From positions 26,584,546-26,648,545 of the forward strand of contig NC_054879.1 in NCBI RefSeq assembly GCF_018320785.1: DNA of 64,000 nt, written 5' to 3'. Source of the stretch: Cheilinus undulatus. Lineage: Eukaryota. Shown here piece after piece: positions 1,331 to 43,739 of the stretch; position 1 is the first letter of the stretch, and each line of letters begins with the position of its first letter. The position numbers and the translations under genes are program-made. The notes under the pieces are model-generated. The model saw nothing but the letters and a program-made list of their open reading frames with translations. It had not been told where the DNA came from and made no database searches.

Positions 1331-1354
1331 TTAATAGATCATCATCTTCAACAG

Positions 1355-5431: not shown

Positions 5432-5534
5432 ATACATCAAATAAAAAACTTGACCTTAAAACCCAAAGGACTTTTACAGCATTCAAACGCAGTGGACAAT
5501 CCAGAGTGAAGCTTATAGGAAACAGAAGGCATCA

Positions 5535-14790: not shown

Positions 14791-14864
14791 AACTAAAATG
14801 AAAGAAAGAATGAATGCAGACAGCTTTTTATTGTTAAATAAACATTTTTCTTCAAATATTTTAG

Positions 14865-15637: not shown

Positions 15638-16572
15638 GTAATGTGTTCTTTGTGGAGTTTTACACATTCATTCTATAACAGTTAATATATCAATCTATCC
15701 ACCAATCTGCATCAGCTTATCATGGATGGGATCATAGTGGCTGAAGGCTAAGCAGGTCACCCCACATATCCCTCTCCAAAGCAATGTTTTTCAGATCCTC
15801 CTGGGGGATTCTGAGGTAGTCCCAGACCAGATAGGATATAAAATCCCTCTAGCAATGTCTGGGTAGGGACTCCTTCCATTTGGATGTTCCTGGGACACCC
15901 TTACAGGGAGGCAACCTAAAGGCAACTCGAACAGATGCCAGAACCACTTCAGCTGGCTCCTTTCAATTTGAATGGGCAGCAGCACTACTCCAGTCCACAT
16001 CTGCATGTTCAAGTTCACCCTATAAGGCTGAGTGTAGCTACCTTCCTGAGGAAACCCAGGAGTTCCTCAAAAGTGCTTCTTCCATTCCACAATATCTACA
16101 GTCTAAGCCCCATCTTTGCCCCATCTTTCCTCATCCTCCTGAGAGCTACTGAAAGTCTCACAGGCAGAAGCCTCTGCCAGGAGTTCCAGTCTAAGCCTTC
16201 CCCACCATCTGATTCAACCCATCACCAGGTAGTGCAGTCAACAGCTCTTCACTTCTATCATCAATCTTAAGCACAGGGTTTTCTGGTATCAGATAGACTT
16301 ATGACAGCTCTATGCAGGGACATAGTTGGTTTTGGCCAATCCATGACCAGTATAGAAGTCTAGGAACAAAGCATCACTTGTGATCAAAACAAGCGAGAGA
16401 GTGTAATAATTAGAGAGGACTAAAACTGAAAATGTGAATCCATAGTCTTCTGAACTTACGCTAGAGCTTCATTTTATCTTTTCCTGTAACTTCAACCACA
16501 CAGAGATTAAATAATGACAGTTCAAAAAAGATTTCCTGTGATAAATTATTTTCACATTTTTTTTCCACCCCT

Positions 16573-16588: not shown

Positions 16589-16699
16589 ATTTACTGCAAA
16601 GAGATTGCATGAGCTAAAACCAAAAGGCCTTTTCCGTAATTCAAATACAGTGCACGCTGCAGAAAGGACCTTTAGAAACAGATAGCATCTTTCGTGGAA

Positions 16700-22600: not shown

Positions 22601-25600
22601 ACCTACTCTCGGAATCCTTCAACTTCTTCCACGTACTATCATCTATCACTGCCCTGGTAAAAGCCTACTTCCAAGACCTGCAGCTGTGCTTTACAACAGC
22701 CAACTTCTACATCTTGGCAGCGCTCAAAGGTGGGCATCATTGCTGGCTGCACAATCTCACCTCTGGCCTTCACAATGGCTATGGAGGTCATCATCAGGGC
22801 CTCTAGATGGGTGATGGGTGGGGAGCAAACTAAGAACGGGCACCGCGGTTACTTGGAAAGTTGCAGACGAACATCAAGTGGGCCCAGATGCAAATAAAGC
22901 CCAACAAATCACAAAGCATCTCAATAGTCAAGGGAGAGCTTAAAGACGTGAAGTTCTGCATTGGTGACGACTCCATACCAGCAGTGTCAGAACAGCCAGT
23001 CAAAAGCCTGGGGAGATGGTACAACGCAAACCTCAGCGATAAAAATCAAGTGCAGCAATTGAGGCAGGACATCACCAACGGTCTCAAGAACATCAACAAG
23101 ACCCTACTGCTGGGGAAACTCAAACTCTGGTGCCTGCAATTCGGATTCCTCCCCGGGCTAATGTGGCCACTCACTATCTGCGAGGTCCCAATAACAACAG
23201 TGGAGAAGATGGAGCGAACCATGACTTCATACATGAAGAAATGGCTTAGAGTCCCACAATGTCTTTCCAACATCAGCCTCTATGGCAAAGGGGTCCTTGA
23301 ACTACCTCTCGCAAGCCTAACTGAAGAGTACAAGTGCTCCAAAGTTAGACTACAGATGACATTAAAGCACTCCAGAGATCAGACCATCAGTAGTGCTGCA
23401 CTGCCCCTGGTAACAGGGCGGAAATGGACACCATCCGACGCAGTGCAGGAAGCTACAGCAGCCCTGAAGCACAAAGACATCGTGGGGCATGTACAGCTGG
23501 GAAAAGGAGGAGAGGAAGAGGAGGCTTTGGCCTTGTGGCGAGCAAACCAACTTGGCATAAGGCCTCAGCAGCTGAGAGTAGGAAGCTGGTGGTGGATGAG
23601 GTACGCAGACAAGAGGAAACTGCAAGAAGTGCAAAGGCTGTCTCGCTTGCTAAGCAGGGGCAGTGGATGCGATGGGAAGACCTGCAGAAGAGGAACCTCA
23701 GCTGGAGGGAGCTTTGGGAAATGGAGGCAGGCAACATAAGCTTTATCATCAGAGCCACCTACAATGTGCTCCCATCACCAAAGAATTTCCACCGGTGGTA
23801 TGTTGAGGATCCGACCTGCTCCCTTTGTCCAAGTCCAGCATCTCTCAAGCACATCATGACCGGTTGCAAGACCAGCCTTACACAAGGCTGCTACACCTGG
23901 AGGCACAACCAGGTCCTCAAGAGCCTGGTAGCAGCACTTGAGATCAGGAGGAGTACAACCAACTCCCTGCCCCTGAGAGCAAACAATACCATCAAGGCAC
24001 CAGCGTTTGTCAGGGAGGGACAGGAAAAGCCCAAACATCCCGCCACCAAGCCAGAAACTGGACAACTAGCCTTGGCCTGTGACTGGAAGATGCTTGTGGA
24101 CATTGGCCAACAGTTAGTATTTCCACCTGAGACTGCATCCACCACCCTTAGACCAGACATGGTCCCCTTCACTCAAGTCTGTGTACATCATAGAACTCAC
24201 AGTACCATGGGAGGACTCAGTGGAAGAGGCCTATGAGCAAAAAAAAACTGCGGCACACAGAACTAGCAGCCAATGCAGAACAATGAGGATGGAAGACAAA
24301 ACTCTACCCGGTCAAAGTGGGATGCAGAGGATTTGTCGCTACTTCCACCATCAGACTGCTAAAGGACCTGGGAAGCCATGGACAGGCTCTCCGGCAGATC
24401 ATTAGATCTGTGTCTGAAGCAGCCGAAAGGAGTAGCCAGTAGATATGGCTCAAGCGGAAGGACCCATGCTGGGCTCCAACAACAGCAAGAGGAGCAACAC
24501 ACTAACACTAGCACCTCCTTCCCCACTTGAGAACCCAGAGCAGAACCCCCACGAACAACATCTGTGCATCTCGTGATAGGGAATGGGACACAAGCTCAGG
24601 CCTGATCACCCTGTAGCTGGCCACCTTTGATGAGGCCGAAAAAAAAGGCCAAAATACCCTATGACTCAAAGGTACACTACTGATGATGTGTTCCAAAGTT
24701 ACATCTATCCATATCTGAGGTGCACCTCCAATGGAGCTCTTAACATCGGGGAACCACCAGGAGGAACTACTAGGAGGATTCTGCTCTTAGGTATTGTTGC
24801 ACTGCAATCATGAGTGGTTTCAAGGAAGGTAGTATCGGCATCGTCACTACCTGGAGCTCACATCAACGGAGCCTTGGTCTGTTGAAGGTGGCATGCTGTT
24901 GAGGCTGTGTGGGCCATGTGATAAGATAGGTAAGAGGATGTCTGCGTTTTAGCATGGTGGGTTGTGAGAGCTGGCGTGGAGGGGCAGGCTCTGGGACTCT
25001 AGAGATCACTGTTCAGCCCTCTGGAGGTGTCCGCTCTTAACATCAGGGAACCACCAGGAGGAACTACTAGGAGGACTCCCAGTCACTCTTATTATCAAGG
25101 AAACCCTCAGGTAAGGTAAGTGCATATCCGGTGACACTCTTGATGTTGGGAGTGTCATTGGAGATTCACCTCCTGTGATGCTCTTGGCATCGAGGAACCA
25201 CCAGGAGGAGCCACCAGGAGGAATCACCAGGAAGACTCCCAATCACTCTTAACATTAAGGAAACCCTCAGGCAAAGTGCATACCACCTATTGGCACAATG
25301 GACAGTTTAACATCCGACCCGTGTTTCATGATTCTGATTCCACACAAATTTCAGATTCACTTTTTAATTTTGAAAAATATATCATTTTTAATGGGGCAAG
25401 CAGTGCTAGTGCTGTTGCCACTGACTGCACACCTCTTTTTAAAATTAGCATATCATCAAAAACAAACGTTACAGTATTTACCAAATATGTTTAGGTATGT
25501 GGAGTATCTAACAATCTACAAAATAAGAAAAAAAACAACCCAGTCCTTTCCCATGGTCTTCCTAATCCGACAGTCTGTTTAGACCTGTTAAGAACCTCCA

Positions 25601-27925
25601 TTTGTGCTTTATACATGACGTGTTCTGGCCAAAAACTGGCACAGATATATTTTATTTTGACCTTGACTATGAAAAAGTGACGTGATTTGCTACCTTTAAA
25701 ACTTTGATCTGCTTCTAATGAAGTGTAGTTCCACTTTGGACGAGTGAATCAGTGGGATTCATAGTTTTAGCCATTTTTTTTAAAAGTTATTAAACTGGAT
25801 GCACTAGCCAGGAAGGAGTCAAGACCAGGATAAACTTCTAAAGAGTTCCACCTGAGAAAGGAAAAAGAGGCTCTGTTGTCTCAGTAGACTGTAGCACCAA
25901 ACAGGTGAAATAAGGAGAGGTTCTCAGACACATCTGTCCACATTTGTCATTGTTTCTAGATATTTCCTGCTCTCTATTATTGGTTGTTCATCATATTTTA
26001 CAGAGAAAACTTGCTCTGCAGGATGGAAGAGGTTCGAATGCTCCTGCTATCTCTTCTCAGAGCAGAAAAACTCTTGGGAAGGAAGCAGGCAAGACTGCAG
26101 AAACAGAGACTCAGATCTTGTGGTTATCGAGAGTTCTGGGGAACAGGTAATGTGTTTATATATAAACTATATATAGTTTATATATACACTTATTTTCACC
26201 TTCTTGTCCTGGTCATAGTGGCTGAAGGCTATGCTTGTCACCCCACACATCCCAAAGCAATTTTTTTCCAGCTCCTCTTGGGAGGTTCAGAGTCATTCCC
26301 AGGCCCAGCAAATTCTGGGTCTTTCCTTGGGTACCCTCTGAGACCTCACCAAGGAGGCAACCCAAAGACAAACTGATCAGATGCCTAAGCCAACTTGACT
26401 GGCTCCTTTCAGTTTGAGGGAGCAGTGACTCTACCTCGAGGTGTCCAAATTTATCAAACAAAGCTGAGTCCAGCTGCTGTCCTGGGGAAGTATTTGAATG
26501 ATTTGTAGCCATGATCTAACTCTTTAGTTCACCACCCAAAGTTCATGACCATCTGGGAGGGTTGAAACAATGATCAACTGATAAATTCAGTTTTTCTTCC
26601 AGATCAGATCCCACTGAAGAGCTTTTTGACTACTATAGTGATAAACATAAATATAAAAACAGGATCTCTGCCTTCAACAGGAATTTGTCTCCAACAACAT
26701 TAAGGATTGGGCTTGGATTGGTCTGAGTGACAGAGAGAATGAAAACATCTGGAAATGGACAGATGGCACCCCGCTGACTCAGGGGTAAGGCACACACTGA
26801 TGTTGTTGTTTCATGCCTTAGCTTAAATTTAGGCATAAATATAATGATTCTTGTAGCACAGTCATGATTATTTTACAAATCAATACACAAATAATTCTTC
26901 TACCATATACTTTTTTTTCTTTTTTAATTAATGCCCATCTAAATGAGTCACAAATCAAACCAAAAACTCAATTCTAATTTTAGCATGCACATAAAGCAAA
27001 AACTTGTTGGTTGAAATTAGTCAGAGAAGCATTTTTTTTTTCTTTACTAACAACATGAGGCCCTGTTAAAGGGATATTTCAACATTTTGGCAAATTCGCC
27101 CATTGCCATAATTCCTATAGTCTTAGTTATAGGTTCGTTTCCTTTATTTGTCGGTGCAAGCTGTTTCTAGATCTGGGGGGACTGTTAAACCAGCTGCACC
27201 ACCAAAGCTATTTTAACAAACAGAATTTTTACTTTCCCTCATCAAACTCATAAAATACACAATCCAACAACTCCAAAACGCTCTCTAGACAAGTTGTGAC
27301 CTGCACATTTACTATGCTATGGAATAATGTATAATTATGTAACATTACAAAACATGAAGCAAATACTCGGAACAATTTCTTGATTGAACCACTGGGTGGG
27401 GTGACACAGTGCAGCAGCCATGTCTGGAGTGTAGTTCTGGTTTTGCATTTAACTTTAAAACATCTCCTTCTCATAATGTTCAATGATTATTTCATAGCGT
27501 GATGAATGTACAGGCTACAACTTGTCCACAAGAGTGTTTTGGAGTTGTTGGATTGTGTATTTGATGAGTTTGATGAGGGAAAGCAAGAATTCTGTCTGCT
27601 AAAGTAGTGTTCGCGGTGCAGCTGGTTCAACGGTCCCCCCAGATCTAGAAACAGCTTGCACGAACAACTAAAGGAAACAGACCTATTACTAAGACTATAG
27701 GAATTACGGCAAGGGGCGAATTTGCCAAAATGTTGAAGTATCCCTTTTAAGTCACACTTGTTAACCTCTTACAGATACTGGTGGTCTGGGCAGCCTGATA
27801 ATGGTGGAGGAGATCCACAGTGGGGCGAAGAAGACTGTGTTCATTTAGAAAATCACAGAGGAAAAGAGGCAAACTGGAATGATGTGCGATGTGACAAGTC
27901 ATTGCTTTGGATTTGTGAAAAATAG
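16700..27925 (+). CDS. Type II TM C-type lectin receptor, copy 3, apparently intact (249 aa). It has a large TE-filled intron between the neck and CTLD1 exons.
   Basis: Exons: 16700-16766 (MEGIYANVEHDKTDENPQTIQTG), 16857-16958 (TM), 20651-20830 (neck ...LSKQ), 26004-26146 (KKTCSAGWKRFECSCYLFS...DSDLVVIESSGEQ), 26681-26784 (EFVSNNIKDWAWIGLSDRENENIWKWTDGTPLTQG), 27775-27925 (YWWSGQPDNGGGDPQWGEEDCVHLENHRGKEANWNDVRCDKSLLWICEK, TAG 27923-27925). Total 747 nt, divisible by 3. AATAAA at 28036-28041. Confidence 0.65.
17040..17125. repeat. Compound (ATT)n/(ATC) microsatellite
   Basis: The tattattatt...atcattatt tract. It explains the poly-N/D ORF on the minus strand. Confidence 0.95.
18326..19072 (-). 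mobile_element. Penelope-like element fragment (GIY-YIG endonuclease domain with CCHH zinc finger)
   Basis: 248-aa ORF containing CLKCSCNHCPKL and YVVYRLTCPCNCFYIGRTKKRQKDRVAEHKY, a GIY-YIG motif. Confidence 0.6.
22100..24420 (+). mobile_element. Non-LTR retrotransposon ORF2 (RT) fragment, frameshifted
   Basis: Overlapping ORFs carry RT motifs (IPGFSGCLEHTSMIWHQ, HVIFLDLANAFGSVPHNLL) and a C-terminal CX2C...H region (CSLCPSPASLKHIMTGC). The frame is broken across 22315-24236. Confidence 0.6.
27061..27751. mobile_element. Foldback/MITE-like element with inverted arms of about 240 bp
   Basis: 27061-27300 is the reverse complement of about 27510-27751 at roughly 90% identity. The termini are ccctgttaaagggatatttcaacattttggcaaattcgcc and ggcgaatttgccaaaatgttgaagtatcccttttaa. 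It lies in the CTLD2-CTLD3 intron of copy 3. Confidence 0.6.
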
Positions 27926-29529: not shown

Positions 29530-29601
29530 TTTGATGAAAAAAGGACTTTCTTCACTATTCAAACTTAGTCTGCTCTGCAGATGGGACCTTTTAGGAAACA
29601 G

Positions 29602-32600
29602 ATGGCATCATTTGAGGAAACTGAGGGAATCTACGCCACTATTGACGATGTTAAACCTGTCGATACCAGACCTCCAACCATTTGGACAAGTAAGAGCGTT
29701 CACTTTGACTCAGCTGTTCAAGAACAGGCATTATCATGCAGCATTATTACTCTTCTCATATGGTTCTGTCTGTGTTCAGGTCCTTTTTGGAAACAGATAT
29801 CATTTGATGAAAGTGAAGGAATCTACGCCACTATCGACGATGTAAAACCTGCTGATGTCAGCCCTCCAATCATTTGGATAAGTAAGTATTCAGTTTGAAC
29901 TCAGCTGGTCAGGAACATAAAATTATGCAGCATTATAACTCGTCTCATATGGTTCTGTCTGTGTTCAGGTCCTAGAAGCTCATCAAGGAGATCTTACAGA
30001 CTTGTTGTTCTTCTGGGACTGCTAAATCTTCTCCTTCTGGCTGGGATCATCGGCCTCAGCATCCTCTGTGAGTCTGTTTTACGGACTTTTACGATTGTAA
30101 ACCAAATTTGAACCTTTGCCATGTAATTTATCAAAAAATTAAAGGGAGAGCCGTTCCAGGCATGGAGTGGCAGAAAGGATGATAAAAGTCAACGGAGAGT
30201 AAGCAGGAAGCATCATCATTTCAGCTGAAAATTATCGTCATTTTTGATAGTTACATCTTGATATGTTCACCGTGCTCAGTACAGATCCTAATCAGATTGT
30301 TTATAGAAATGTTTGGAGTTGTAACAATGCCATGCAGTCAGATCCGGGTAGATTACAGCCATGTTGGGTAACAGTAACCTAGCTAGCCACAATGGCAGGT
30401 TGAATTTATCAGTGTCACAGCTTAAGCTCTACTCTGACCATGCTTGTCTGCTAGCCCTGATGATTTAGATCAGGGGACATCAACTATATTTAAACAAGGG
30501 CCAACGTTTTCCCATACAGGCACTTTGGGGGCCAAACTTTATTTAAAACCATTTATAAATTGGTCTAGTTAATGTTTTTTTGTTGAAATATTTTTATTTT
30601 CTTTCGAATTCATGTAATTTTAAGGCTCTAACAGTGAGATCAGTCTCCATATTGCAGCCAGCCACAAGGAGGCAATTGAGATATTCTAGCTGAATATTTC
30701 AGTGGCTGTGATATTGTCCATCGCTAGGTTTGACGCTAATATGTCGTGTAGTGACGGCAAAACACGTGAAGCCAAGAGTTGACAGAAAACGACAGTTTAA
30801 ATCATGAATGGACTGATAAATATGTGTTTAATATGCATCATGTTTGCTAATAATGGCTGACAGGTGGATGTCTGAAAAATGGATGAAACAAAGTCATTCC
30901 TGATTAAACTTTCAATCTTAATTGTTCCTGAAGTTGTTTTAATAGCTCTAGGGAGTTTGTTTAAAGAAATGGGAAAAAAGACACCTGAAATACTACAACA
31001 TATTTTTTCCTCTGAACATGTTCTTAATTTCATAATGATCTGGGGGCCGGATGTGGCCCCCGGACCACCAGTTGATGATCACTGATTTAGATGCTTGTTG
31101 AAGTGAGGCCGTTCAGCACATACAAGTCTCAAATCTACCCCAGAATAACTGGAACGTGGCTGGTCTCATCATCCATTCGAGGGTTTTTACGCAGTACCAA
31201 GAGCTTTCATGCTGTATAACAATGACCCACACAAATGCCACACTCACTGACATACACACACACGGATGTGCTGTTAATATAGACTGAAGGATTTCATCTG
31301 TTTAGGGAAAATGTTTCAGACTGTTAGAGGACAAACACAGGCCTGAACTCTGTCGCTGTCAGAGGGAAAATATGAGATGTTCTTGTAATCTGCTGTAGTT
31401 TTTTTTCCTGACAAACAGTTGACAGTATTTTAATATTAGCATAAATGTAATACCCATTGAAGGGAATAAAAATATCTAAGAGTAATTGACAGCATAGATG
31501 ACCGTCTCTAACAATGAAGTATGACACACATCTCTGTAGTGTGCTGCCTTATTTTCACTGGGAGAAGTGTGCTATTAAGAGGAGAGATAATATTGATCAT
31601 TTTGATGAGGGAAGATAAAGAATGTGTGTCATGTCATACCATATGTACCAAATTTGGCATGTAGCACATAGTTTCCAAACACCAAAAATGTGGCTAGTGG
31701 AGCTACAGCATGCCTAGCAAGTTCGCAAAACACTAGCCACCATGGCGAGAGAGCAAAATCATTAATGCTAAGCCCTGTGGGTGTGTGTGTATACAGGATG
31801 GCTCTTTTCCCTTAATAAATGACATCATTATTTACAAATTATTTCTATTTACTCTGGTTAACCTCGTCCAATATTAAAATTTGTTGATGATCTGAAAGAT
31901 TAAAGTGTAATAAAATTAAGAAAATCTGTGAGAGTCACAGCACTGTATATCATCAGAAACAGTGTGACTGTTCTTTTAAGAAAATTTAAAGACGCTGATC
32001 AGACAGGAGCATTCAACCCTACCTCTGTATTTCCTGTTTTTTGTTGTTGTCAGTTTTTTTTTGTCGTGTCATTCAGACATGTTAATCCAGTTATGAAATC
32101 GGACATTTCTCTTTTAAAAAGTTCCAGTCACAGTGATGGAAAGGCGTCGATGAGACCTTGACCTGAAGCTCTCTTTCTGTCCATGCATCATGGAACCATC
32201 TGCTGCTGAGCCGCACAAGCCTGAGTGGTGTAAAATCAGCCAATAAGGCCAATGTTCAGACCTGAAAGCTGTGTTGTTATAATGCCTTTACTTTTTCAAT
32301 GGGAACACTGAAGTTTATGTTTTTATTAGCATCATAAACTTTATCAATAAAAGTGCGAAGGCCAAGGACAGTCTCCTGACTCTGAATCATTTAGGTTGGG
32401 TAATTTGGATCAGTTTTAGGGTCATGCTTATAAGGCCCACTTATAATGTCATATCTGCTCAAAGAAACATAGAGTAAGCCTCATTTAGATGCACACAGTT
32501 CACCCTGTTAAAGAAATCTTTTTCTTTGTATTATTTCAGACCGAGATTCAGCTCATCATGCATCTGCAGAGCTATCCGCCATTAAAGCCAAGCTAACTGA

Positions 32601-32742
32601 GCATCTTCAGGTCAAAGATGAGCAGCTGTCCTCACTGACTGTACAGCAGAACCTTCTGGATGTCACACTCACCAATATGAACAAAGAGCTGCAGAGTCGT
32701 CTGCGGGGTGATGCTTGTGTACAGATGTATTTATTCGATTAG
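29602..32742 (+). CDS. Truncated lectin paralogue (copy X): duplicated cytoplasmic-motif exon, TM exon and neck exon that reads through to a stop. No CTLD exons. Possible CTLD-less product or a pseudogene.
   Basis: Exons: 29602-29689 (MASFEETEGIYATIDDVKPVDTRPPTIWT; an upstream in-frame ATG at 29581 is also possible), 29780-29881 (SPFWKQISFDESEGIYATIDDVKPADVSPPIIWI, a second copy of the motif fused to a TM-exon-like 5' end), 29969-30067 (TM, SPRSSSRRSYRLVVLLGLLNLLLLAGIIGLSIL), 32540-32742 (neck; the canonical CAGA|gtgagt donor is lost, and the frame runs on to TAG at 32740-32742). AATAAA at 32862-32867. No CTLD exon is seen before copy 4 starts at 36667. The frame from the ATG to the stop is 492 nt, about 163 aa. 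Confidence 0.45.
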
Positions 32743-32867: not shown

Positions 32868-35800
32868 GTAAATTATACAATCAAAAACAAACAAAAAACA
32901 AATGAACAAAAAACACTTCAGCTTGTTTATTTGTGAAAATTATATCAAACTTTATACTGGAGCCCCTCACTCATATTCTGGGCTGATCTCTGTGTCTTTC
33001 CCAAAAGACCAGAAAAAAGAAAAAAATATTATACCTTTATTTGAAACCAGTGACCAGTGCAATATTCCAAGCTATCATCTTACATCAATTTTAACTTTTT
33101 TTTTTTTTTTTTTAAACGTTGAAACGTTTAATTTATAATACAGGGTTGCTTCACACTTTTACACATGAAATTTAAATATTTTTAATACTTTATTAAGACC
33201 TGAACTCAAAAATTTTATGGCACATTTTGCACAGAAAAAAGTAAAAGCGTGTTAGATTTCATGGTACACTGGACAAGGATAGAGTTTTTGATTTAATGCT
33301 CTGTTTATGAAATGTCAACTGGAGTAGAACAAAAAAGTTTCTTGGTCATAAACATCTGAGTTTGATTATTTAGCAGTTTTAAAGCCTCCACTCTATCGGG
33401 GCTGACACGCAGACAGAATGTGCATGTAGCACTGCTGTAAATGCTTTTAACTCTGACATGGACAAACATGAACGTACAAGTCAATGTGCCGTCTGATATT
33501 TAAGACCTCTCACTGGTTAAGACTTTTGATGGCCTTAAATTTCAGAAGTCCAATTGAAGACTTTTTAAGGATACACTGCAAACCTGATAATAGAGCTGGA
33601 ACTCATTTACAAAAAAATACAATTTCTCTGGAACATCAGTGTGGATTTAGAAAGATCATTCTACCTGTGTGGCATTTTGTCAGGCAGCTCTTAATTTTGA
33701 TAAATATGCACTGAGCATTTTTTCAGATTTGTCAAAAGCATTTGGCATGGTCAGTGATTAATTCTGTTTGCTAAATTACAACACCATGGGTTTCACTGAA
33801 CCAGTCACATAAGTACCACAAGGATCTGTATTAGGACCTTTATTGTTTCTTATTCACATGAAGGATTTTTCATTAGTTTGTAATTGCTCTTCTCCTATTT
33901 TTTTTTTTTTTTTTTGCTGATGATACCAACATGATTTTATCACACAGTGGCTTACATACCCTATTTAATAATACAAATCCAAATGAGGAATTGGTGTTGA
34001 AGTTACAAAATGATTTAAAAATCTTAATTATAAAGTCAAACTTCATAGTATTTGCAAGAAGAGGCAGGAGTTAGATGTCCTAGTGGACAAGAACTTAAGT
34101 TGGAAATATCACATTTTTTTTTTATCCACAAAAAAGGACCTTTTGCAAAAAAGCCTTGTTTATTCACCTTGTGTTATTATCAGCGTCAGTTTTATCAAAA
34201 CTGGGACACATTTCTTTATACAATGAAGAGCTATAAACTTCATTGAAAGCTTTAGATGGCAGAAAAAAGGTTTTACTGCCCTTCTGCTGACCTGCTTCAG
34301 CATAAGTTTGCAATAGTTACAGGAGAAGGGGGATGTAGTGTGGGTCTGTTTATACAATGGGAGCTGGTGGAGCAGTTAGCTCGGCTGTGGCATTGGTATA
34401 GCGTTGGTTTAGTCAGAACTGGACCACATAGCTTTATTAAAACAAGAGCAAAGAGACCCACTGTAAGCTCCTATTGATGGAGAAGACGACCGGCCACAGC
34501 ATTTAATCCACATCATCATCCACAGTTCCAAAACTACGGTAGCATTTGTCAGGAGGTTTGTTGCAGAGCTGCGTATGCGTGCTACTATGTCACATGCTTT
34601 GTCGCTCTGATTGGCTCGTGATGACTGGGACAGAGAAAACGTTCGTACAATCACCTTCCAAGAATTTTTTTGGAAAAGTCCTGCCCTTCCCAAATGCTTT
34701 CTATGGAAGCTTTCCCAGATAAATTTGAAATATCCACTCAATGGATAAATGAAACACTCTATCTGCCGTGTCAGACTGGTTTAGTCCTCAAACTGCCTTC
34801 AATTTTACTTTCTGCAAAAACGTTTTGTAAGATTGCCAACTTTCCTTTATTCATTCAACAGAAGCTTCTGCCCCCTCTTCAAAAATCTCAACGTCCTTTC
34901 AGTTTATGATCCAAACATTCACGTGGGTATCTATACAAATATATGTTCTTCCCTTTGTCTTTACCATCATCATTTAGTAACTAGTTTGAATTAAATTCAC
35001 AGTCATGTATATACTTCCAGAGGGTTCATCATCTTCATCTTCCCTTTGATAAAAGTGAAAATGGTCAGTTTTTCATTTGTTATCATTGTGTAAAATATGG
35101 AATGCTTTTAGTTTTCCTCAATTAATAAAGCTTAAATTTTCATGTTTTAAGTTTGTTCTTTTGTTAATTTATTGTTGTTTATATAGTTTCTCATTTCTGT
35201 TGCTTATTCTCATGTTTATCAACACTTTTTAGTACATATTAGGGCTGTCAAAAGATTAAAACTGTAATTGCAATTAATGTCAGAATTTCTGTACTTAGTC
35301 GCAAAGTTTCACCTTTTTTATCGAATTTTAAAATTACACTATTTTTCATTTTAAACTTTTTTCATGGCTGGATGTTTCTACTGTCTTAAACTTAGTGTAA
35401 TTGACTTCCTGTTTGGGTACACACCTACTTTCAGAGGTGTATTGAAGTTTTGATATTCATTTCACCATGGAAAAACAGACTTGCTATGGATTGAAAATGA
35501 AATAAGCGATCCTTAAAGGTGTAGATGATTTTTTCGTGTCTACTGAGTTCTCAGCAAGTTAGCTTACAGTGAACGAGACCTCAAAGAGCAGTGGGGGACT
35601 TATTTTACATCACTGGCTGCAGGGAGACACTGGTGCAGCCTTAACCAAAGTAAGTTGAAAGTGACAATTAAGCATGCAATAAAAAAATATCAGTGCACTT
35701 ATTGTGGATCTAAATTAATTGAGATTAACTAACTAAATAAATTTTAAAAACTTAATGAAATAATACTGCCACAGACCCATTATCCAGCAAAACTAACTTT

Positions 35801-36566: not shown

Positions 36567-36666
36567 ATTTTTTTCTGATGAATAAAAATGCAAGAACTTA
36601 AAACCTAGAAGACTTTCTCTGCAGTCACATTGGCCCACACTGCAGACAGGACCTTTTAGGTCAGAG

Positions 36667-39600
36667 ATGGCATCACTCATGGAAATGGAGGGAATTTACG
36701 TCAATATTGGAAGTGCTGCTGATGTCAGACCTCCGACCATTCAGACAAGTAAGAGTATTCCCTTTGACTCAGCTGTTCAGGAATAGCTATTATCTTGCAG
36801 CATTTTAAATCTCATGCGGTTTGGTCTGTGTTCAGGTCCTGAAAGCTCACCAAGGAGATTTGACAGACCTGTTGCTGTTTTTCTGGGGCTGCTGAATGTA
36901 ATCCTGTTGGCTGGGATCATTGGCCTCAGCTTCCACTGTGAGTTATTTTATTTTTAGCACCACTTTAAAAAGAACCTACAGCTTCCAGGCTTCAGTTTGT
37001 TTGACTTCCTGATAAAGGCTTGATGCCGAAACGCGTTGAAGTGTGTTTTTAGGTCAACTCTTGACCATTCCATGAAAATAAAGACATTTTAATGCTTGTA
37101 AAGAGAGTCCACAATGTAATAAATCCCTTTAACTTTGAATTACAAACAAAATTATTTTTAGAAACAAATAAGTAAATCTGAATATGACATAAAAATCAAT
37201 ATACAAATATGAACAATGTTAACGTCAAAGACAGTAACAACAAGAGTGGAGCACTTACTACAGGGGTCATCAACTAAATTACTACAAGGCCCAGCTTTTC
37301 CCTGATGGACACTTTATGGGCCAGACTTTAAAATAACCTAAAATAAAGGGGGTCAAACAGCCAGTTGGTAAGGCCGCGCCCCATGCACACAGGAGGTGCA
37401 GGTTCAGATCTAGCCTGTGGCTCTTTTACTCTTTCGTCTTTCTATGAATGCTCTGTTAGTTTTACTCCATATGTCACAGGACGAACACCTTCCAAAAAGT
37501 TCAGCTTTTGTCTGGTCAGTCCACAGAACATTTTATCAAAAGTCTTGGGGATCATCAAAATGTTTTTAATCAAATGTGAGACAAGCCTTTGTGTTGTTGT
37601 TGGTCCACAGTGGTTGGATGCCATTTTTGCCCAGTCTCTGTCTTATTGTCAAACCATGAGTCAAGTGAGGCCTACAGGTCTTTAGGTCTTCTGGGTTCGA
37701 GTTGTTTTGGTGGGCCGACCACTGTTCCAAGTTTTCTCCATTTGTGGATAATGGCTCTCACTGTGGTTCACTGGAGTGCCAAAGCCAAACCCTTTCCAGG
37801 CTGATAGATGTCAGTGTCTTTGTTTCTCATGTGTTCTTGAATTTCTTTAGATGGCGCCATGTTGGGCTGCTTTTTGAGATCTTTTCGTCTATTTGACTTT
37901 GTTAGACAGGTTCTGTTTAAAGGACTTCTTGATTCGACAGATCTGGCAGTAATCAGGCCTGGGTGTGGCTAGTGTAACTGAACTCAGCTTTTCAAATAAT
38001 GTGGTTGATCACAGTTAATCCATGATTTTACTCTGGGGATCAGTTACTTTTTCACGTACTTTTTCAAGTCTGGATGGCTTTTTGTGTTCACCCTAGTTAT
38101 CTTTGTCTGATATCAAAATAAGTTTAATGACCTGAAACATTTAAGTGTGAGAAAACTAAGAAACAAGGGAGGGGAGGCGAACACTTTTCACAGCATTGTA
38201 TATCATTAGAAACACTTTAATTACACCTTTTATACAATTTAAAGACTCAGGAACATTCACCTCTATTTCCTCTATTTCCTGTTGTGTTGTTTCTTTGTCA
38301 TGTCATTCAGATACGTTAATTCAGTTATGAAATCAGGCGTGACTGTTAAAAGAGGAAGTTCCAGTCATTGCGGGTGAGATCGATGATGGAAAGGCACTGA
38401 TAAAACTTTGAGAATATAGTGTTTACCTTTTCTTAGTGATCGAAGCCTGAGTGGCGTAAAATGAGCTGATATAATTGGATATGGTTCCAGTCTACCCTTG
38501 CAAAGCAGATGGGTTTGCCAGACTCCATGTCTGCCATCAGACAAATCCATCTAGGAAAGCTCTAATCCACAACATTTGTGGTGAGCAGACACTGGTGTGG
38601 CCTATCAGCATTATCTGGGGAGAACAAGGCTGTAGTAATGGTTAGGGTTAAGCCATTCACACAGGATAAGCGAAGCTTGTTATATACTCAAATTTACAGA
38701 CATTTCTGAAGGAAACTATACAGGTACTGTATAGAAGCAGAAATGATAACACAATGTTTTTTCTAGCGTAAACTATTAAAGTTTACTGCAGGAACGGAGG
38801 CTCCAGCCGACTGTCAAAACTCAGATACAGGAGGAACAATGCAGATTCCATCCTGGCTGTGGGACAGTGGCCCAGCTCTTTACTCTCACAGGACTTCTTG
38901 AGGGAGTGTGGGAGTTTGCTAATCCACTCTAAATGTGTTTCGTGGGCAAGGCTTATGGTCATGTCCTTCAGGGGGAGTCATGTGAGACCAAAAACACTAT
39001 TTCTAACCTATATGTGTCAAAAAGTTTGTTAACAATCTCCTATGCAGGCTTTTTTTTTTTTTTTTTTTGATCAGGAAAAGCTGCAAGAACCGTAACAAAC
39101 ATAATTACCACTCTAAATTACAGAGATGCTGATTGGTACAGAATAAGTATTGCCTTTGGACCTCTGTGTGTGCTGTAATATGGTGGGTAATTAACCCTGG
39201 CATTTTTTCTCTGCATTCTGTTGAAGAAACATTTTTCTTTGATTATTTCAGCACATCATGTATCTGCAGAGCTCTCCACCATCAAAGCCAATCTGACTGA
39301 GCAGCTTGAGGTCAAAGATCAGCAGCTGTCTTCACTGAATGAACAGAGGGACCTTCTGAATGTCAAATTCACCAACATGAGGAAAGAGCTGTCTCAAAAG
39401 AGTGAGTTCTACCAAAGCTAACTGATCTCTTAAGTTTCTTTTTTATGATTAAAGTTCATGACCAACTATCATGTCCAGCGCGGTGATTGGCTCCAAAGTT
39501 ACATTAATCACCATTCTAGTAACTTTCACTTCCTTTAAAGGGTAAAGTGAAAATAGAGGAAACACTATTCCAACTCTGTTAGCTGTTTTCAAATCAAAAT

Positions 39601-42600
39601 ATTACAAATCTGTAAATATTACACAATTACAAAACACCTATTTTTAAAACAGAAATGTCAAAATTGTGTAAAATTATGTTTGGTAATGCACTTGTCGAAG
39701 CTGTCACTTAACCAATGCGACATGGCATGAAGCCGATCAGTCCGTGGCACTGCTGGGGGTGTTCTGAAGCATAGGTTGCTCTGAAAGCAGCCTGTCTTTA
39801 TTGTTGAGTCTGATTTCTCTCATCTTCCTCTTGACATTTCCCCAGAGATTCTCTGTGGTGCTCAGGTCAGGCCAGTTGGCTGGCCAGTCAAACACAGTAA
39901 TACAACCAGTCTCTGGCAGTTATGGCTTCACTGTGGGCAGGTGCCAAGTCCTGCTGGAAAAGGAAATCAGTATCTCCATAAATTCTCTCTGCAGATAGAA
40001 GCACAAAGTGTTTTATAATCTCCTGGCAGATGGCTGACAGTGCTGACTCTGGACTTGACAATGACCAGTGGACCAACAGCAGCAGATGGCATGGCACCCC
40101 AAACATCACTGACTGTGGAAACTGAAGCTTTAAGCTGCAATCATCAAGAGTAAAACAAAAAAGTCTTTGGAATATTCCACTTTGTGTGCAATGGAACCAG
40201 AGTATATGTAGGTCCAACAAACAAAATGTAACATTCCTGTTTACTACAGTTACTACACGCATTCAAAGTGTCAATTACAGATGAACAGCCTTGAGTACAA
40301 ACATCTGTAAAACACAGATCTTATCTCTTAGATCAAAGTAGGAAGTGGTCTTTGACACATATTTCCACTCTTGATAACATCTCTAGGTCTTTTCTGCTCT
40401 CTAATGTTGTTTGTTCATCATATTTTACAGAAAAAACTTGTCCTGCAGGATGGAAGATGTTCCAGGGTTCCTGTTATTTCTTCTCAACGCTTAAAAAGAC
40501 TTGGGAGGAGAGCAGGAAAGACTGCACAGACAAAGATGCAGATCTTGTGATCATTCGTAGTTTTGAGGAACAGGTAATGTGGTCTTTGTGGAGTTTCACA
40601 TTTCATCCCCTGAGCAATACTTTTCAGCTCCTCCTGGGAAATTCTGGGGGATCCCCAGGTGGGATATACAAAGTATGGCTATCAAAAACAAGACTAATGC
40701 TGTAATACAATTTTATTGAAGATAAATCTTTTTCTTTGATTAGCCCACCACAAATGTGGCAGACACAGCGCTCCTGCCCTGCCCTTCCCAAACACTTTCT
40801 ATGGGAGCTTTTCCAGATAAATATGAAGTATATCCATGCAATGGATATTTGAAACAGTCAATCTGGCGTGTCAGGTGTCAGCAAGTTTGGCACACACTTT
40901 TGTCATGTTCAAATTTTCATGCATAATTTCCCAACTGTCTTTATCAATGGAGAGCTACCATTCTTATACTGAGTCATTAATCATTTCAAATAATTTGTTC
41001 AATTTGTTGAATGTCTTAAGACATTTTGATGTGCATGGGTACCCAGAGCGCTCATGATCTCGGACATCCTCTCTGCCTTCACTAAATCTTTTGTGCCATT
41101 CATAATTTTTAAGCCAATCATTTTCTGACAGAGCAGAACACATGCCCTTCAACTGGTAGTTAGCAGTGACGTTATGCCTCGTTTAGAAGTGGTAAGGACG
41201 ATACATAAAAAGAACCGTATCACTCAGATCTTAAGTAGCCACAAAGACAATGTTTTAAAGTTTGAACAAAAAGAATGATGTATTAACATAGATTAATTTA
41301 AGCTCACACAGACAAGGAAAGTTACCTCAGGGTGAGACACTTCAAAGGGATATTTCTGTATTTTTGAAGTTGAATTGTATGAGATACTTGGTGATAGTAA
41401 TGCAGTAGGGGTTTTCTAAAGGGGGCCGTCAAGGGGCCACAGTACTCATAGAGAGGCCAAGTATTTTTCCAACATCCTTTTTTTGGTAAGGTGTATACAT
41501 TTCACCAGTCATACCTTGTTCAAACACTTAATGTAATTTTAAAAAAAGCTTAGCTAAACTCCTTACAAATGTAATTGGAATTTTTACTGTGCATAGACAA
41601 AACACTTTCAAACACTCACAGCAGGTGAGCAACTCCAGCAGATATACACTTTTTTTAAAGCCTTAAATGGGTTAACGTTACCGTTAACTAATGTTAGCTA
41701 CTGCCTCTTAATTTAATGTTTGTCAAACTTAAGTGACAGCAGTGAGTAAATGGGGCATTATTGACTTACTAAAAAACTCCACAAGATGTCGGCTACCATC
41801 TCTTATCTGTGTAGAAAAACTCTTCTTGGTGGTATCATCCAAACCTTCTTCTCATCATTCTCATCATCATTCCTGTACAAAGGATAGATGAGTGACAGGA
41901 CAGGAGCACTAAAGGGGGCCAATCAGATTTCAGCTGCGGCCAAAGGCCCTGTGGCCCCGCCCCTAGAACCGCCCCTGCTATTAGGCTCCAGAGTTTTCAG
42001 CATAGACTCTTAAAAGAATTGGATATGCCTGGAGGACCTCCAGGGGGAGGCACCCTGATGCAAACCCTGTCAAGGGCGCACTTCTGGCGCTCAGCTTAGC
42101 GCTTGTGTGTAACCAAACATCCCTTTCTTGTGCCTCATCCTGGGCAACTGGGCAAGAGCATCCAGCCCCTCTTCAGGTGTTTGGTTCCTGACATGTCTGG
42201 TGTAAAGTCCAAGTATTTCTAGCTGGGAGTGGTCCACCCTGACTTCAACTCCACTGCTTCCCTACCAGAGAGAGAAATGAAAGATAATAAATACTCTGTC
42301 CTCATTGTGTGTGATTGTCTGTACACAAATCGACAGATAGCTAACAGACTGAAGAGACGTCAGAAGCTGGAGTAAAGTTGTAAGGTCTTTACTGTTGCTG
42401 TCATTCTCTTTCGTTTACATTTTGTAAAACTGAAAAAATACAAATAATTCTGTATCAGTTATATGATGCAATTAAATACACATCATACATGCATACAAAA
42501 CAGCTGCTGCATAAATGTACTGTACAAGAATATCAATCAAAAATTAGGTTCATATATAACTGAAACACTGCAAACAGTCATAAATTCAACATAAATCAGT

Positions 42601-43739
42601 AGCCGTGCTATATGCAAATTAAAGCTATCAAAACTAGCATAGGAAAAAACTAGCATCATGTACGGCCATCTCTCAGCATCATTAGCTCACTTCTAAATTT
42701 TTATTTATGGCAATATGAAACATAAACAACAGAGATGAATCAACATAATAAGCCACAAGTGAAAAATAAACTTGCAAGCGATGCTTTCAGAAATGGGGAA
42801 GGAAAGAAAGGCAGCTGATGAAGCAGGCTGACCGCATGGCAACGTCTCCCAACTACAGCGCCTACTGTGACTCAGCTAAGTCACGTGACCAAATGAACCA
42901 ATCAGATCTGATGGCAAACTACACTACAGAAATTCAATTACCTTAAATAACCAAAAGGGGGAGACAGATACTAAAACATCACACTATTGTTATAACACAT
43001 GACAGATAATCTCAGGATTTTTCTATTGGCCACTGAAACTTTTAATATTATTGTGCTTTTCGTTGTCCTTGCTTTCCTATATTTATGTTGTTAATAATAA
43101 TGTTTAAGTTGAATTCCACAATTCTACATTTTTTTTTGTCATAAGAATTTATAAATCATTTGATTTAAGAGACATATTTATAAATTTTCCATTTCCAGGA
43201 ATGAATGAGTTAAAGACATAAATATAAAAGCAGGATCTCCACCCTTTAACAGGAATTTCTCACTAACAACAGAAAGGATTGGACATGGATTGGCCTGAGT
43301 GACAAAGAGAATGAAGGCATCTGGAAATGGACGGACGGCTCCCTACTGACTCAGGAGTAAGGCACATGGAGATAATATGTCTTAGCTTGAATTAAGGCAC
43401 ATTGGCATTGATTCTCGTAAATTATTTTTGACCTGTTTATTTTCTGTTTTTCAAAGCCTATTTAAAAGAATCAGTCCTTTTTAACTAATTTAACTAACTT
43501 GTTGATTAGATTCACTCACAGCAGCCTTTTTTAAATAAACACTCTTTTAAGAAAAGCTATAAATCCTCTTAAATTCACACTAGTTCACCTCTTACAGATT
43601 CTGGTTCAAAGGGCAGCCTGATAATGGTGAAGGACATCCCAAACTGGGTGAAGAAGACTGTGTTCATTTCAGAAAAACAGACAAAAGGTGGAATGATCGG
43701 GGATGCAACGTGCCCATGCATTGGATTTGTGAGAAATAG
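36667..43739 (+). CDS. Type II TM C-type lectin receptor, copy 4, apparently intact (240 aa, shorter neck)
   Basis: Exons: 36667-36748 (MASLMEMEGIYVNIGSAADVRPPTIQT), 36836-36937 (TM), 39252-39401 (neck, 150 nt), 40431-40573 (KKTCPAGWKMFQGSCYFFSTLKKTWEESRKDCTDKDADLVIIRSFEEQ), 43253-43356 (EFLTNNRKDWTWIGLSDKENEGIWKWTDGSLLTQ), 43598-43739 (EFWFKGQPDNGEGHPKLGEEDCVHFRKTDKRWNDRGCNVPMHWICEK, TAG 43737-43739). Total 723 nt, divisible by 3. AATAAA at 43848-43853. Confidence 0.7.
37440..38210 (-). mobile_element. Tc1-like element relic in the TM-to-neck intron of copy 4, ending in a Tc1 ITR terminus
   Basis: A minus-strand ORF resembles Tc1 transposase. The terminus ...gaggggaggcgaacacttttcacagcattgta matches the canonical Tc1 ITR (tacagtgc...gtatt..cccc). 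Orthologous insertions lie at 48300-48775 and about 31905. Confidence 0.5.
39720..40270 (-). mobile_element. Tc1/mariner transposase fragment (DDE region)
   Basis: Minus-strand ORF ...DTDFLFQQDLAPAHSEAITARDW is the Tc1 FQQDN.P.H motif. Related sequence occurs at 51650-51870. Confidence 0.5.

What the first reader, a model, noticed from the sequence alone, without database searches (positions are those of the whole stretch)
29602..29881. Internal exon duplication gives copy X two tandem copies of the tyrosine motif
The exon at 29780-29881 begins like a TM exon (GTCCT... after the ttcag acceptor) but then re-encodes SFDESEGIYATIDDVKPADVSPPIIW. It ends in the same phase-1 G/A|gtaag donor as exon 1. 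The exon is 102 nt and keeps phase, so splicing 1 to 1' to TM would produce a tail with two EGIYATIDD motifs about 37 residues apart. This is an exon-shuffling event that could turn a hemITAM-like tail into a two-tyrosine ITAM-like tail, though the spacing is longer than the classical 6-12 residues.
Basis: seen in the sequence. Interest (0 to 1): 0.7.

Follow-up and report, generated by a model that had tools for sequence, protein, structure and literature searches.

The report
Duplicated tail exon in fish lectin receptor
A 192-base tandem duplication in a humphead wrasse C-type lectin receptor locus created an extra in-frame exon, so one predicted (already RefSeq-annotated) isoform carries two copies of its cytoplasmic tyrosine motif; it is a real but ordinary exon duplication, not an ITAM.

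Summary
Window 29584-29778 and 29779-29973 are two tandem copies (about 84% identical) of a unit holding the leader, the tail exon and intron 1. This creates a 102-nt phase 1-1 exon (29780-29881) with intact splice sites.

The window is Cheilinus undulatus. Joining 29581-29689, 29780-29881, 29969-30067 and four downstream exons reproduces RefSeq XP_041663335.1 (282 aa) exactly. That model carries two EGIYATIDDVKP motifs at Y18 and Y52, so the predicted product is already in a public database.

"Copy X" is not a complete gene. It has no lectin-domain exons. In the RefSeq model its tail and transmembrane exons act as an alternative 5' cassette of the next gene downstream (36.7-43.7 kb).

Both motif copies differ by three synonymous changes only, while their flanks carry 10 of 11 changes as replacements. 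Both acceptor regions are identical. This points to use of the exon.

The ITAM reading fails: 30 residues separate the two YATI motifs, against 6-12 in an ITAM. The motif corresponds in position to the family's N-terminal EEIY-x-N-V motif, which resembles the Y5 endocytic/hemITAM motif of CLEC10A and ASGR1. Similar double tails occur in sablefish, stickleback and salmonid homologues. Transcript evidence could not be examined. Interest is low to moderate.

The parts
29584..29778 (+). Tandem duplication unit 1: most of the leader, tail exon 1 and intron 1
   Evidence: Self-blastn pairs 29584-29784 with 29779-29973 at 83.7% identity, E = 9e-54. Alignment A1.
29779..29973 (+). Tandem duplication unit 2: exon 1' and intron 1', ending in the first 5 nt of the TM exon. 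The junction shows CCT microhomology.
   Evidence: The three junction contexts are ...GGGACCTTTTAGG...AGGTCCTTTTTGG and ...AGGTCCTAGAAGC.
29581..29689 (+). Tail exon 1 of the copy X cassette. The CDS starts at ATG 29581 in the RefSeq model; a second in-frame ATG lies at 29602. It encodes the first motif, EGIYATIDDVKP (Y18). Phase 0 to 1, donor CAA|gtaaga.
   Evidence: Concatenated exons translate exactly to P0121. Sequence.
29690..29779 (+). Intron 1 (90 nt). It is open in frame. Its last 26 nt (polypyrimidine tract and acceptor) are identical to those of intron 1'.
29780..29881 (+). Exon 1', the duplicated tail exon (102 nt, phase 1 to 1). It encodes SPFWKQISFDESEGIYATIDDVKPADVSPPIIWI with the second motif (Y52). 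Donor TAA|gtaagt.
   Evidence: It is included in RefSeq XP_041663335.1. The motif codons differ from exon 1 by 3 synonymous changes only.
29882..29968 (+). Intron 1' (87 nt), a copy of intron 1
   Evidence: Intron alignment gives 76 matches, 9 mismatches and 7 gap columns.
29969..30067 (+). Transmembrane exon of the copy X cassette (99 nt, phase 1 to 1): SPRSSSRRSYRLVVLLGLLNLLLLAGIIGLSIL. No charged residue lies in the membrane span.
   Evidence: Homologous to the TM exons of the paralogues.
32540..32707 (+). Neck exon of copy X. It has an intact ORF and splice sites (168 nt, phase 1 to 1) but is skipped in the RefSeq isoform.
   Evidence: It is absent from P0121.
36667..36937 (+). The downstream gene's own tail exon (36667-36748, single motif MEGIYVNI) and TM exon (36836-36937). 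These are used by isoform X1 only.
   Evidence: My gene model is 100% identical to P0003 = XP_041663334.1.
39252..39401 (+). Neck exon shared by isoforms X1 and X2. It is the acceptor of the 9184-nt intron that starts at 30067.
40431..43739 (+). The three CTLD exons shared by both isoforms (40431-40573, 43253-43356, 43598-43739), with QPD and WND sugar/Ca2+ site motifs
   Evidence: Pfam Lectin_C at residues 175-282, E = 5e-24.

Best explanation
The window holds a tandem array of type II, group II C-type lectin receptor genes of the humphead wrasse, annotated 'CD209 antigen-like'.

Copy X (29.5-32.7 kb) is the surviving 5' half of one paralogue: tail, TM and neck exons, with the lectin-domain exons lost. 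Inside it, a microhomology-flanked tandem duplication of about 192 bp copied the leader, the tail exon and intron 1. Because the unit ends 5 nt into the TM exon, the copy inherited the intron-1 acceptor in front and the exon-1 donor behind. The result is a new 102-nt symmetric (phase 1-1) internal exon.

Transcripts that start at the copy X cassette splice exon 1 to exon 1' to the TM exon. They then jump 9.2 kb to the neck and lectin-domain exons of the next gene. This gives an alternative N-terminal isoform, RefSeq XP_041663335.1. Its roughly 79-residue cytoplasmic tail carries two identical E-G-I-Y-A-T-I-D-D-V-K-P motifs 34 residues apart.

Shown here: the duplication, the reading frame, the splice signals, the identity with the RefSeq model, and sequence constraint on both motif copies.

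Inferred: the model rests on transcript evidence, and each motif acts as an independent tyrosine-based docking or sorting site (Yxx-hydrophobic, hemITAM-like half-site). On that view the duplication doubles site valency per chain in an oligomeric receptor rather than creating a classical ITAM. The change from the family's Y-x-N-V to Y-A-T-I happened before the duplication. It would remove the Grb2-type pYxN determinant, an inference from the general SH2 consensus.
For: 1. Species and genes. P0001 and P0002 (C. undulatus 'CD209 antigen-like protein C') match window genes g2 and g1 by eye over their tail and TM exons. My model of g4 equals XP_041663334.1 at 100%.
2. Cluster mate P0121 = XP_041663335.1 (282 aa) has the double tail. 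Window exons 29581-29689 + 29780-29881 + 29969-30067 + 39252-39401 + 40431-40573 + 43253-43356 + 43598-43739 translate to it exactly.
3. No homologous protein that could have served as a template carries this exon 1'. Its presence in an alternative-isoform model is therefore most simply explained by transcript alignments. This is an inference from how Gnomon builds variants.
4. Constraint on the motif. In the window defined beforehand by family conservation, there are 3 synonymous and 0 replacement differences. The flanks have 1 synonymous and 10 replacement differences. My hand calculation of Fisher's exact test on these counts gives p = 0.011. Simulation gives P = 0.0066 that the motif stays unchanged.
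5. The last 26 nt of both introns are identical, although the rest differs at 9 of 59 aligned positions. Both donors are GTAAG.
6. All N-terminal exons are phase 1-1. RefSeq also has an isoform of g0 that skips the TM exon (P0018 against P0122). Many homologues have duplicated neck exons. Exon gain and loss is therefore habitual in this family.
7. Independent double tails occur in Anoplopoma (P0036, P0049, P0068), Gasterosteus (P0100) and salmonids (P0111, P0117, P0120).
Against: - No RNA data could be examined, and XP_041663335.1 is a computational model.
- Neither protein is on record in the contig index.
- No transcript-derived (Logan) protein with the double tail appeared.
- The cassette has lost its own lectin-domain exons, and its neck exon is skipped. 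A decaying gene remnant would look the same.
- dN/dS over the whole exon is 0.62 on only 14 differences. The flanks look unconstrained.
- Absence of stop codons is uninformative (P = 0.56 by chance).
- No biochemical function has been shown for this motif in any fish receptor found in the literature searches.
Confidence: 0.6

Rival explanations
1. Decaying relic. Copy X is a truncated pseudogene fragment and exon 1' is a neutral by-product. Any transcript that joins it to the downstream gene is rare read-through noise, and the RefSeq isoform has no biological role.
For: - No CTLD exons follow the cassette.
- Its own neck exon is not used in the model.
- Other orphan exon fragments lie in the array at 14822-15118 and 15494-15649.
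- Replacement changes dominate in the motif flanks.
- An open frame is expected by chance (P = 0.56).
Against: - Both 12-residue motif copies are identical in protein, with only synonymous differences (hand-calculated Fisher p about 0.01, counts).
- Both acceptor regions and both donors are preserved at roughly 11-14% overall divergence.
- The cassette is incorporated in a RefSeq isoform with a complete open frame.
Confidence: 0.27
2. Functional ITAM-like tail. The two YATI motifs on one chain are bound together by the tandem SH2 domains of a Syk-family kinase, so the duplication turned a hemITAM into an ITAM equivalent.
For: - There are two Y-x-x-I half-sites with upstream acidic residues.
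- I at +3 fits YxxL/I better than the family's V.
- hemITAM receptors are thought to engage Syk through two half-sites on separate chains. PMC7404283 reports that CLEC-2 clustering (dimerization) is required for hemITAM phosphorylation.
- Salmon receptors of this family are described as having 'one or two ITAMs' (PMC6400144).
Against: - Thirty residues lie between the motifs, against 6-12 in the ITAM definition.
- The double tails of other fishes have 20-21 residues between motifs and often lack L/I at +3 (YVNA, YAVP, YVSA).
- An Ile directly before the Tyr limits activating signalling in DNGR-1 (PMC12669754).
- There are no binding data.
Confidence: 0.1
3. Assembly artefact: a falsely expanded repeat.
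For: None beyond the tandem arrangement. Tandem Repeats Finder did not report the 192-bp pair.
Against: - The copies differ at about 14% of exon and 11% of intron positions, and by several indels, including a 3-nt codon deletion.
- The window has no gaps.
- Assembly errors produce near-identical copies.
Confidence: 0.02

Closest known systems
CLEC10A (MGL) and ASGR1 N-terminal tyrosine motif (YENF / YQDL at Tyr5)
   Same: - Both are type II group II lectin receptors.
- CLEC10A is the best single-domain PDB sequence match of the CTLD (6py1, 108 bits).
- The wrasse CTLD has QPD and WND.
- The family tail starts M-E-E-I-Y5-[AV]-N-[VI]. This is a Tyr at position 5 in a Y-x-N-hydrophobic context like YENF.
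- YENF is described as an endocytic motif and also as a hemITAM that signals through Src/Syk (PMC7404283).
   Different: - Copy X has YATI (T, not N, at +2) and two copies of the motif.
- An N-terminal extension places the first Tyr at 11 or 18.
- No functional data exist for the fish motif.
DNGR-1 (CLEC9A) hemITAM, EEEI-Y-x-x-L
   Same: Acidic residues followed by Ile directly before the Tyr, near the N-terminus of a type II lectin receptor. The family consensus is E-E-I-Y. In DNGR-1 this Ile recruits SHIP1 and limits activation (PMC12669754).
   Different: - DNGR-1 belongs to the group V Dectin-1 cluster, not group II.
- The fish motif has V/I rather than L at +3, and mostly N at +2.
- Copy X reads E-G-I-Y, so the acidic residues sit at -3, -5 and -6 rather than -2 to -4.
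Canonical ITAM (YxxL/I-x6-12-YxxL/I) of FcR-gamma, DAP12 and CD3
   Same: Two YxxI half-sites lie on one cytoplasmic chain. They were produced by duplication of an exon that carries one half-site.
   Different: The spacing is 30 residues. The motifs sit on the receptor itself rather than on an adaptor. Tandem-SH2 binding is untested.
Double-tail homologues in other teleosts (RefSeq models of Anoplopoma fimbria, Gasterosteus aculeatus and salmonids)
   Same: They belong to the same receptor family and carry two N-terminal tyrosine motifs in series in front of the TM segment. Sablefish and stickleback share the junction ...NQT-A-M..., which implies one older tail-exon duplication.
   Different: - These are independent events with different junctions. 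The second copy keeps its Met and only 2 nt of leader.
- Y-to-Y distance is 22-25 residues.
- The motifs are of the Y-x-N type or degenerate, not YATI.
Neck-repeat expansion in DC-SIGN/DC-SIGNR-type receptors
   Same: The shared principle is in-frame repetition of N-terminal modules that changes receptor architecture. Many fish homologues show 2-6 repeated neck units.
   Different: Here the repeated module is the cytoplasmic signalling exon, not the extracellular neck.

Membership tests
Tandem exon duplication | Two adjacent homologous exons with homologous flanking intron sequence | tested here: met
   83.7% identity over 202 columns covering exon plus intron, E = 9e-54.
Tandem exon duplication | The new exon is symmetric, in frame, and has intact splice sites | tested here: met
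   102 nt, phase 1 to 1. The 15-nt acceptor context printed is identical to that of the TM exon, and the donor is gtaagt. One search shows 20 identical nt.
Tandem exon duplication | Both exons are included together in a mature mRNA | not testable with these tools
   Only indirect evidence: RefSeq model XP_041663335.1 contains both. No RNA reads are available.
ITAM | Two YxxL/I motifs in one cytoplasmic chain | tested here: met
   YATI at residues 18-21 and 52-55 of P0121.
ITAM | Six to twelve residues between the two YxxL/I motifs | tested here: not met
   Thirty residues (22-51) lie between I21 and Y52.
ITAM | The doubly phosphorylated motif binds the tandem SH2 domains of Syk/ZAP-70 | not testable with these tools
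   Needs biochemistry.
hemITAM (Dectin-1, CLEC-2, DNGR-1, SIGNR3, CLEC10A) | A single YxxL in the N-terminal tail of a type II C-type lectin receptor | tested here: inconclusive
   The motif is YxxI, not YxxL, and is present twice. The topology is type II, with the basic stretch RSSSRRSYR before the TM segment.
hemITAM (Dectin-1, CLEC-2, DNGR-1, SIGNR3, CLEC10A) | An acidic stretch (DED or EEE) immediately upstream, followed by G or I before the Tyr | tested here: inconclusive
   The sequences are EETEGIY and DESEGIY. Acidic residues sit at -3, -5 and -6, G at -2 and I at -1. The reference motifs DEDG-Y and EEEI-Y are from PMC12669754.
hemITAM (Dectin-1, CLEC-2, DNGR-1, SIGNR3, CLEC10A) | Syk recruitment after Src-family phosphorylation | not testable with these tools
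   Needs experiments.
ITIM | [S/I/V/L]-x-Y-x-x-[I/V/L] | tested here: not met
   Position -2 is G in copy X and E or D in the family.
Grb2-type SH2 site (pY-x-N) | Asn at +2 after the Tyr | tested here: not met
   The family has N at +2 in 95 of 103 proteins. Copy X has T in both copies, the only T in the set.
Yxx-hydrophobic endocytic signal (as in ASGR1 YQDL and CLEC10A YENF) | Y-x-x-bulky hydrophobic residue in the cytoplasmic tail | tested here: met
   YATI occurs twice. AP-2 binding and internalisation were not tested.
Group II C-type lectin receptor (ASGR / CLEC10A / DC-SIGN type) | Type II membrane protein with a neck and one C-terminal Ca2+-type CTLD | tested here: met
   - Pfam Lectin_C, E = 5e-24.
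- Best single-CTLD PDB matches are CLEC10A, DC-SIGNR, DC-SIGN and ASGR2.
- QPD and WND are present.
- Lectin_N gives a weak match below its cut-off.
Adaptor-coupled CLR (Mincle / Dectin-2 type) | A positively charged residue in the membrane span for pairing with FcR-gamma or DAP12 | tested here: not met
   The TM segment LVVLLGLLNLLLLAGIIGLSIL has no R or K.

The most novel reading that the evidence does not exclude
One lectin ectodomain is wired by alternative promoters to two different signalling tails. One is a single Y-x-N (Grb2-type) tail, isoform X1. The other is a duplicated Y-A-T-I tail, isoform X2. In X2 the two half-sites, alone or across the oligomer, recruit Syk-family tandem SH2 domains. 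That would make it a living example of an ITAM-like module arising by duplication of a half-site exon.
Probability: 0.1. Interest if true: 0.6.

Novelty: new member of a known kind. Interest (0 to 1): 0.3.

Why it matters
If the isoform is expressed, it is a clean and datable example of how symmetric (phase 1-1) exons let immune receptors change the number of signalling motifs. It also shows how one sugar-binding domain can be coupled to different cytoplasmic tails through alternative 5' cassettes. The same kind of tail doubling appears in several fish lineages, so the family could serve as a natural series for asking what motif number and spacing do to lectin receptor trafficking and signalling. 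The mechanism itself is textbook exon duplication, and the protein is already in RefSeq as a prediction. The finding therefore refines annotation and evolutionary understanding rather than revealing a new kind of system.

Tried and rejected
- Tandem Repeats Finder did not report the 192-bp pair: two copies at about 84% identity fall below its score. Blastn and MAFFT were used instead.
- The first homologue search, with the spliced copy X N-terminus, returned only g1 and g2. It missed the RefSeq isoform because that protein sits inside the 90% cluster of isoform X1. It was found only by listing cluster members.
- My guessed chimeras (copy X exons 1-3 joined to the downstream exon 4, or to exon 3, with or without 1') were not in the collection. 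The real model skips the copy X neck exon and starts at the upstream ATG.
- Contig look-ups for P0001 and P0121 found nothing on record, so gene ranges and transcript contigs could not be inspected.
- A sensitive tblastn search for CTLD exons 4-6 between 30.1 and 36.6 kb gave only chance-level hits. Blastn found only a 95-nt remnant.
- Full-text search for the literal motif strings (EEIYANV and similar) returned only irrelevant papers.
- Searches for hemITAM or tail motifs in teleost lectins gave no functional study of this motif.
- I considered ITIM, ITSM, adaptor coupling through a charged TM residue, and a Grb2 site for copy X. All were rejected on sequence.
- Absence of a stop codon was rejected as evidence, because the chance probability is 0.56.
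- I did not run structure prediction or the exhaustive representative search. The tail is short and probably disordered, and a 30-residue match cannot reach significance in 1.8 billion sequences.
Full report
**What is in the sequence**

The window is vertebrate genomic DNA with small exons and GT-AG introns. Between 29581 and 30067 three exons lie close together.
- Exon 1 (29581 or 29602 to 29689) encodes (MGPFRKQ)MASFEETEGIYATIDDVKPVDTRPPTIWT and ends CAA|gtaaga.
- A 102-nt exon (29780-29881) encodes SPFWKQISFDESEGIYATIDDVKPADVSPPIIWI and ends TAA|gtaagt.
- The transmembrane exon (29969-30067) follows.

The two downstream exons sit behind identical acceptor contexts. All three junctions are phase 1.

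Self-blastn pairs 29584-29784 with 29779-29973 at 83.7% identity, E = 9e-54 (alignment). The duplicated unit is therefore about 192 bp. It comprises the leader, exon 1 and intron 1, and stops 5 nt into the TM exon. The three junction contexts share a CCT microhomology. In the second copy the ATG has become ATA and one codon is deleted. Only the motif spacing is slightly off: 34 residues from tyrosine to tyrosine, not about 37.

**Not an assembly artefact**

The two units differ at 14 of 99 aligned exon positions and 9 of 85 aligned intron positions, plus seven gap columns. The window has no N. Assembly errors would give near-identical copies.

**Genomic context**

The window carries a head-to-tail array of type II C-type lectin receptor genes, all on the + strand. 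The basic plan has six exons: tail, TM, neck and three CTLD exons.

| Gene | Position |
|---|---|
| g0 | ends at 2947 |
| g1 | 5.5-12.2 kb |
| g2 | 16.7-27.9 kb |
| copy X | 29.6-32.7 kb |
| g4 | 36.7-43.7 kb |
| g5 | 47.8-55.5 kb |

Protein searches identify the species as Cheilinus undulatus. P0001 and P0002 correspond to g2 and g1. P0003 (XP_041663334.1) is 100% identical to my model of g4. P0004 corresponds to g5, and P0122/P0018 to g0.

Copy X has tail, tail', TM and neck exons (32540-32707). No CTLD exon follows. A sensitive tblastn search with the CTLD exons of three paralogues finds nothing better than E = 0.15 between 30.1 and 36.6 kb. Blastn finds only a 95-nt remnant at 34680-34774 that resembles g4 intron 4. 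Whole-protein tblastn confirms the gap. Copy X is therefore a 5' gene fragment, not a complete gene.

**The key result**

Listing the 90% cluster of P0003 revealed a second member, P0121 = XP_041663335.1, 'CD209 antigen-like protein A isoform X2', 282 aa. Its accession is consecutive with that of isoform X1.

Concatenating these window exons and translating gives P0121 exactly:

29581-29689 + 29780-29881 + 29969-30067 + 39252-39401 + 40431-40573 + 43253-43356 + 43598-43739

RefSeq therefore already models a transcript that starts in the copy X cassette and includes exon 1'. It uses the copy X TM exon and skips the copy X neck exon. It then splices over a 9184-nt intron into the neck and CTLD exons of g4. 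The product has YATI at 18-21 and 52-55.

Copy X is thus best described as an alternative 5' cassette (tail plus TM) of the downstream gene. That gene's own tail, in isoform X1, has a single MEGIYVNI motif.

I could not inspect the evidence behind the model. No homologous protein contains this exon 1', so a homology-guided model would not have included it. That argues for transcript alignments as the source. This is an inference from how NCBI's pipeline builds alternative variants.

**Is the extra exon used? Indirect tests**

1. Motif conservation.
   - A window was defined beforehand from conservation across 103 family members, positions -3 to +7 around the Tyr.
   - Within the 12-residue motif EGIYATIDDVKP that spans this window, the two copies are identical in protein and differ by three synonymous substitutions (GAG/GAA, ATT/ATC, GTT/GTA).
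   - The flanks carry one synonymous and ten replacement differences.
   - My hand calculation of Fisher's exact test on these counts gives p = 0.011.
   - Randomly placing 14 substitutions leaves the motif unchanged in 0.66% of simulations.
2. Splice signals. The last 26 nt of both introns are identical, while the remainder differs at 9 of 59 aligned positions. Both donors are GTAAG.
3. Introns of 90 and 87 nt with identical acceptors make inclusion the default expectation. This is inference.

Against these points: the whole-exon dN/dS is 0.62 on few sites, the flanks look unconstrained, and the open frame is not informative (P = 0.56).

**What the motif is**

Across 103 homologues the tail begins M-E-E-I-Y-[AV]-N-[VI]-E-Y-D-K. 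N is at +2 in 95 of 103. Copy X is the only member with T at +2. Both of its copies share this and also a Q-to-W change further on, so these changes predate the duplication.

The CTLD is closest, among single-domain solved structures, to CLEC10A, followed by DC-SIGNR, DC-SIGN and ASGR2. It carries QPD and WND. Pfam confirms Lectin_C.

CLEC10A and ASGR1 have a Tyr5 motif, YENF and YQDL respectively. It acts as an endocytic signal and, for CLEC10A, is also called a hemITAM that signals through Src/Syk (PMC7404283). The fish M-E-E-I-Y5-A-N-V is positionally and chemically the counterpart of that motif.

The acidic-acidic-Ile-Tyr arrangement also recalls the DNGR-1 hemITAM (EEEI-Y). There the Ile recruits SHIP1 and dampens activation (PMC12669754).

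The motif is not an ITIM, because position -2 is G, E or D. The TM segment has no charged residue for adaptor pairing. In copy X the Grb2-type Asn is lost.

**ITAM reading**

An ITAM needs 6-12 residues between its two YxxL/I motifs. Here there are 30. The defining spacing is therefore not met, and I do not file this tail as an ITAM.

It remains possible that two half-sites on one flexible tail, or on neighbouring chains of an oligomer, co-engage a Syk-family kinase. hemITAM receptors are thought to do this across separate chains; PMC7404283 reports that CLEC-2 clustering is required for phosphorylation of its hemITAM. That idea is speculative.

**Comparison with other fishes**

Double tails are not unique to the wrasse.
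- Three sablefish models (P0036, P0049, P0068) read MEEIYANV...NQTA-MEEIYVNA...
- A stickleback model (P0100) has the same NQTA-M junction. This implies one older tail-exon duplication in their common lineage.
- Salmonid members (P0111, P0117, P0120) carry EDIYAVP and VDIYVSA about 24 residues apart. A carp study mentions 'one or two ITAMs' for salmon receptors (PMC6400144).
- Many homologues have 2-6 repeated neck units.
- RefSeq isoform X2 of g0 skips the TM exon in frame.

The family's run of phase 1-1 N-terminal exons makes such gains and losses easy. The wrasse event is an independent instance with its own junction and a derived motif.

**Verdict**

The duplication is real. The two-motif protein is already present in RefSeq as a prediction. 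The ITAM interpretation fails its defining test.

The most likely function is a doubling of an endocytic/hemITAM-like tyrosine site on an alternative N-terminal isoform of the downstream lectin (confidence about 0.6). The main rival is a non-functional relic whose splice product is noise (about 0.27).

This is a new member of a known kind, with modest interest. RNA junction counts at 29689^29780, 29881^29969 and 30067^39252 would settle it.

Noticed in passing
window 14822-15118 and 15494-15649 (+): Orphan copies of a neck exon and of the first CTLD exon lie between g1 and g2 (65-79% identical to P0001/P0002). No tail, TM or later CTLD exons accompany them. This is a second partial gene fragment in the array.
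   Followed up: partly
g0, window 1-2947; proteins P0122 and P0018: RefSeq isoform X2 of g0 (XP_041662855.1, 216 aa) skips the transmembrane exon in frame. It would give a lectin with neither a membrane anchor nor a signal peptide.
   Followed up: partly
window about 16680-16700 (g2) and 5520-5545 (g1): The start codon conserved in copy X, g4 and g5 (ATGGCATCA) reads ATAGCATC in g2 and AAGGCATCA in g1. The RefSeq proteins start at downstream Met residues (MEGIYANV, MEEMDEIY). This puts the Tyr at position 4-7, as in most other fishes.
   Followed up: partly
window 29569-29895 and 16676-16978 (+): Intron 1 is open in frame in copy X (90 nt) and in g2, so single ORFs run through exon, intron and exon. 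Retention would insert a hydrophobic 30-residue stretch (…LSCSIITLLIWFCLCS). A run of 30 codons without a stop is expected by chance about a quarter of the time.
   Followed up: no
window 29570-29580, and equivalent sites at 36640-36649 and about 16660: A conserved pyrimidine-rich CTGCAG lies directly upstream of the tail exon in several paralogues and looks like a 3' splice site. The 'first' coding exon may be preceded by an unannotated non-coding exon. Paralogue homology extends only about 40-60 nt further upstream.
   Followed up: no
window 34680-34774 (+): A 95-nt stretch is 85.6% identical to g4 40778-40874, which lies in intron 4 about 200 nt after the first CTLD exon. It is probably the last remnant of copy X's lost 3' half.
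   Followed up: partly
window 48000-50100 (g5, intron after the TM exon): The region has strong negative AT skew (-0.22) and internally repeated ORF-like segments (49164-49469, 49521-49787, 49791-50042). It is probably a minisatellite or a transposon insertion.
   Followed up: no
window 22000-26000 and 58000-60000: There is a GC-rich block (0.46-0.49, AT skew +0.2) inside the long g2 intron. A strongly skewed block (GC skew +0.21, AT skew +0.26) lies downstream of g5. Neither was examined.
   Followed up: no
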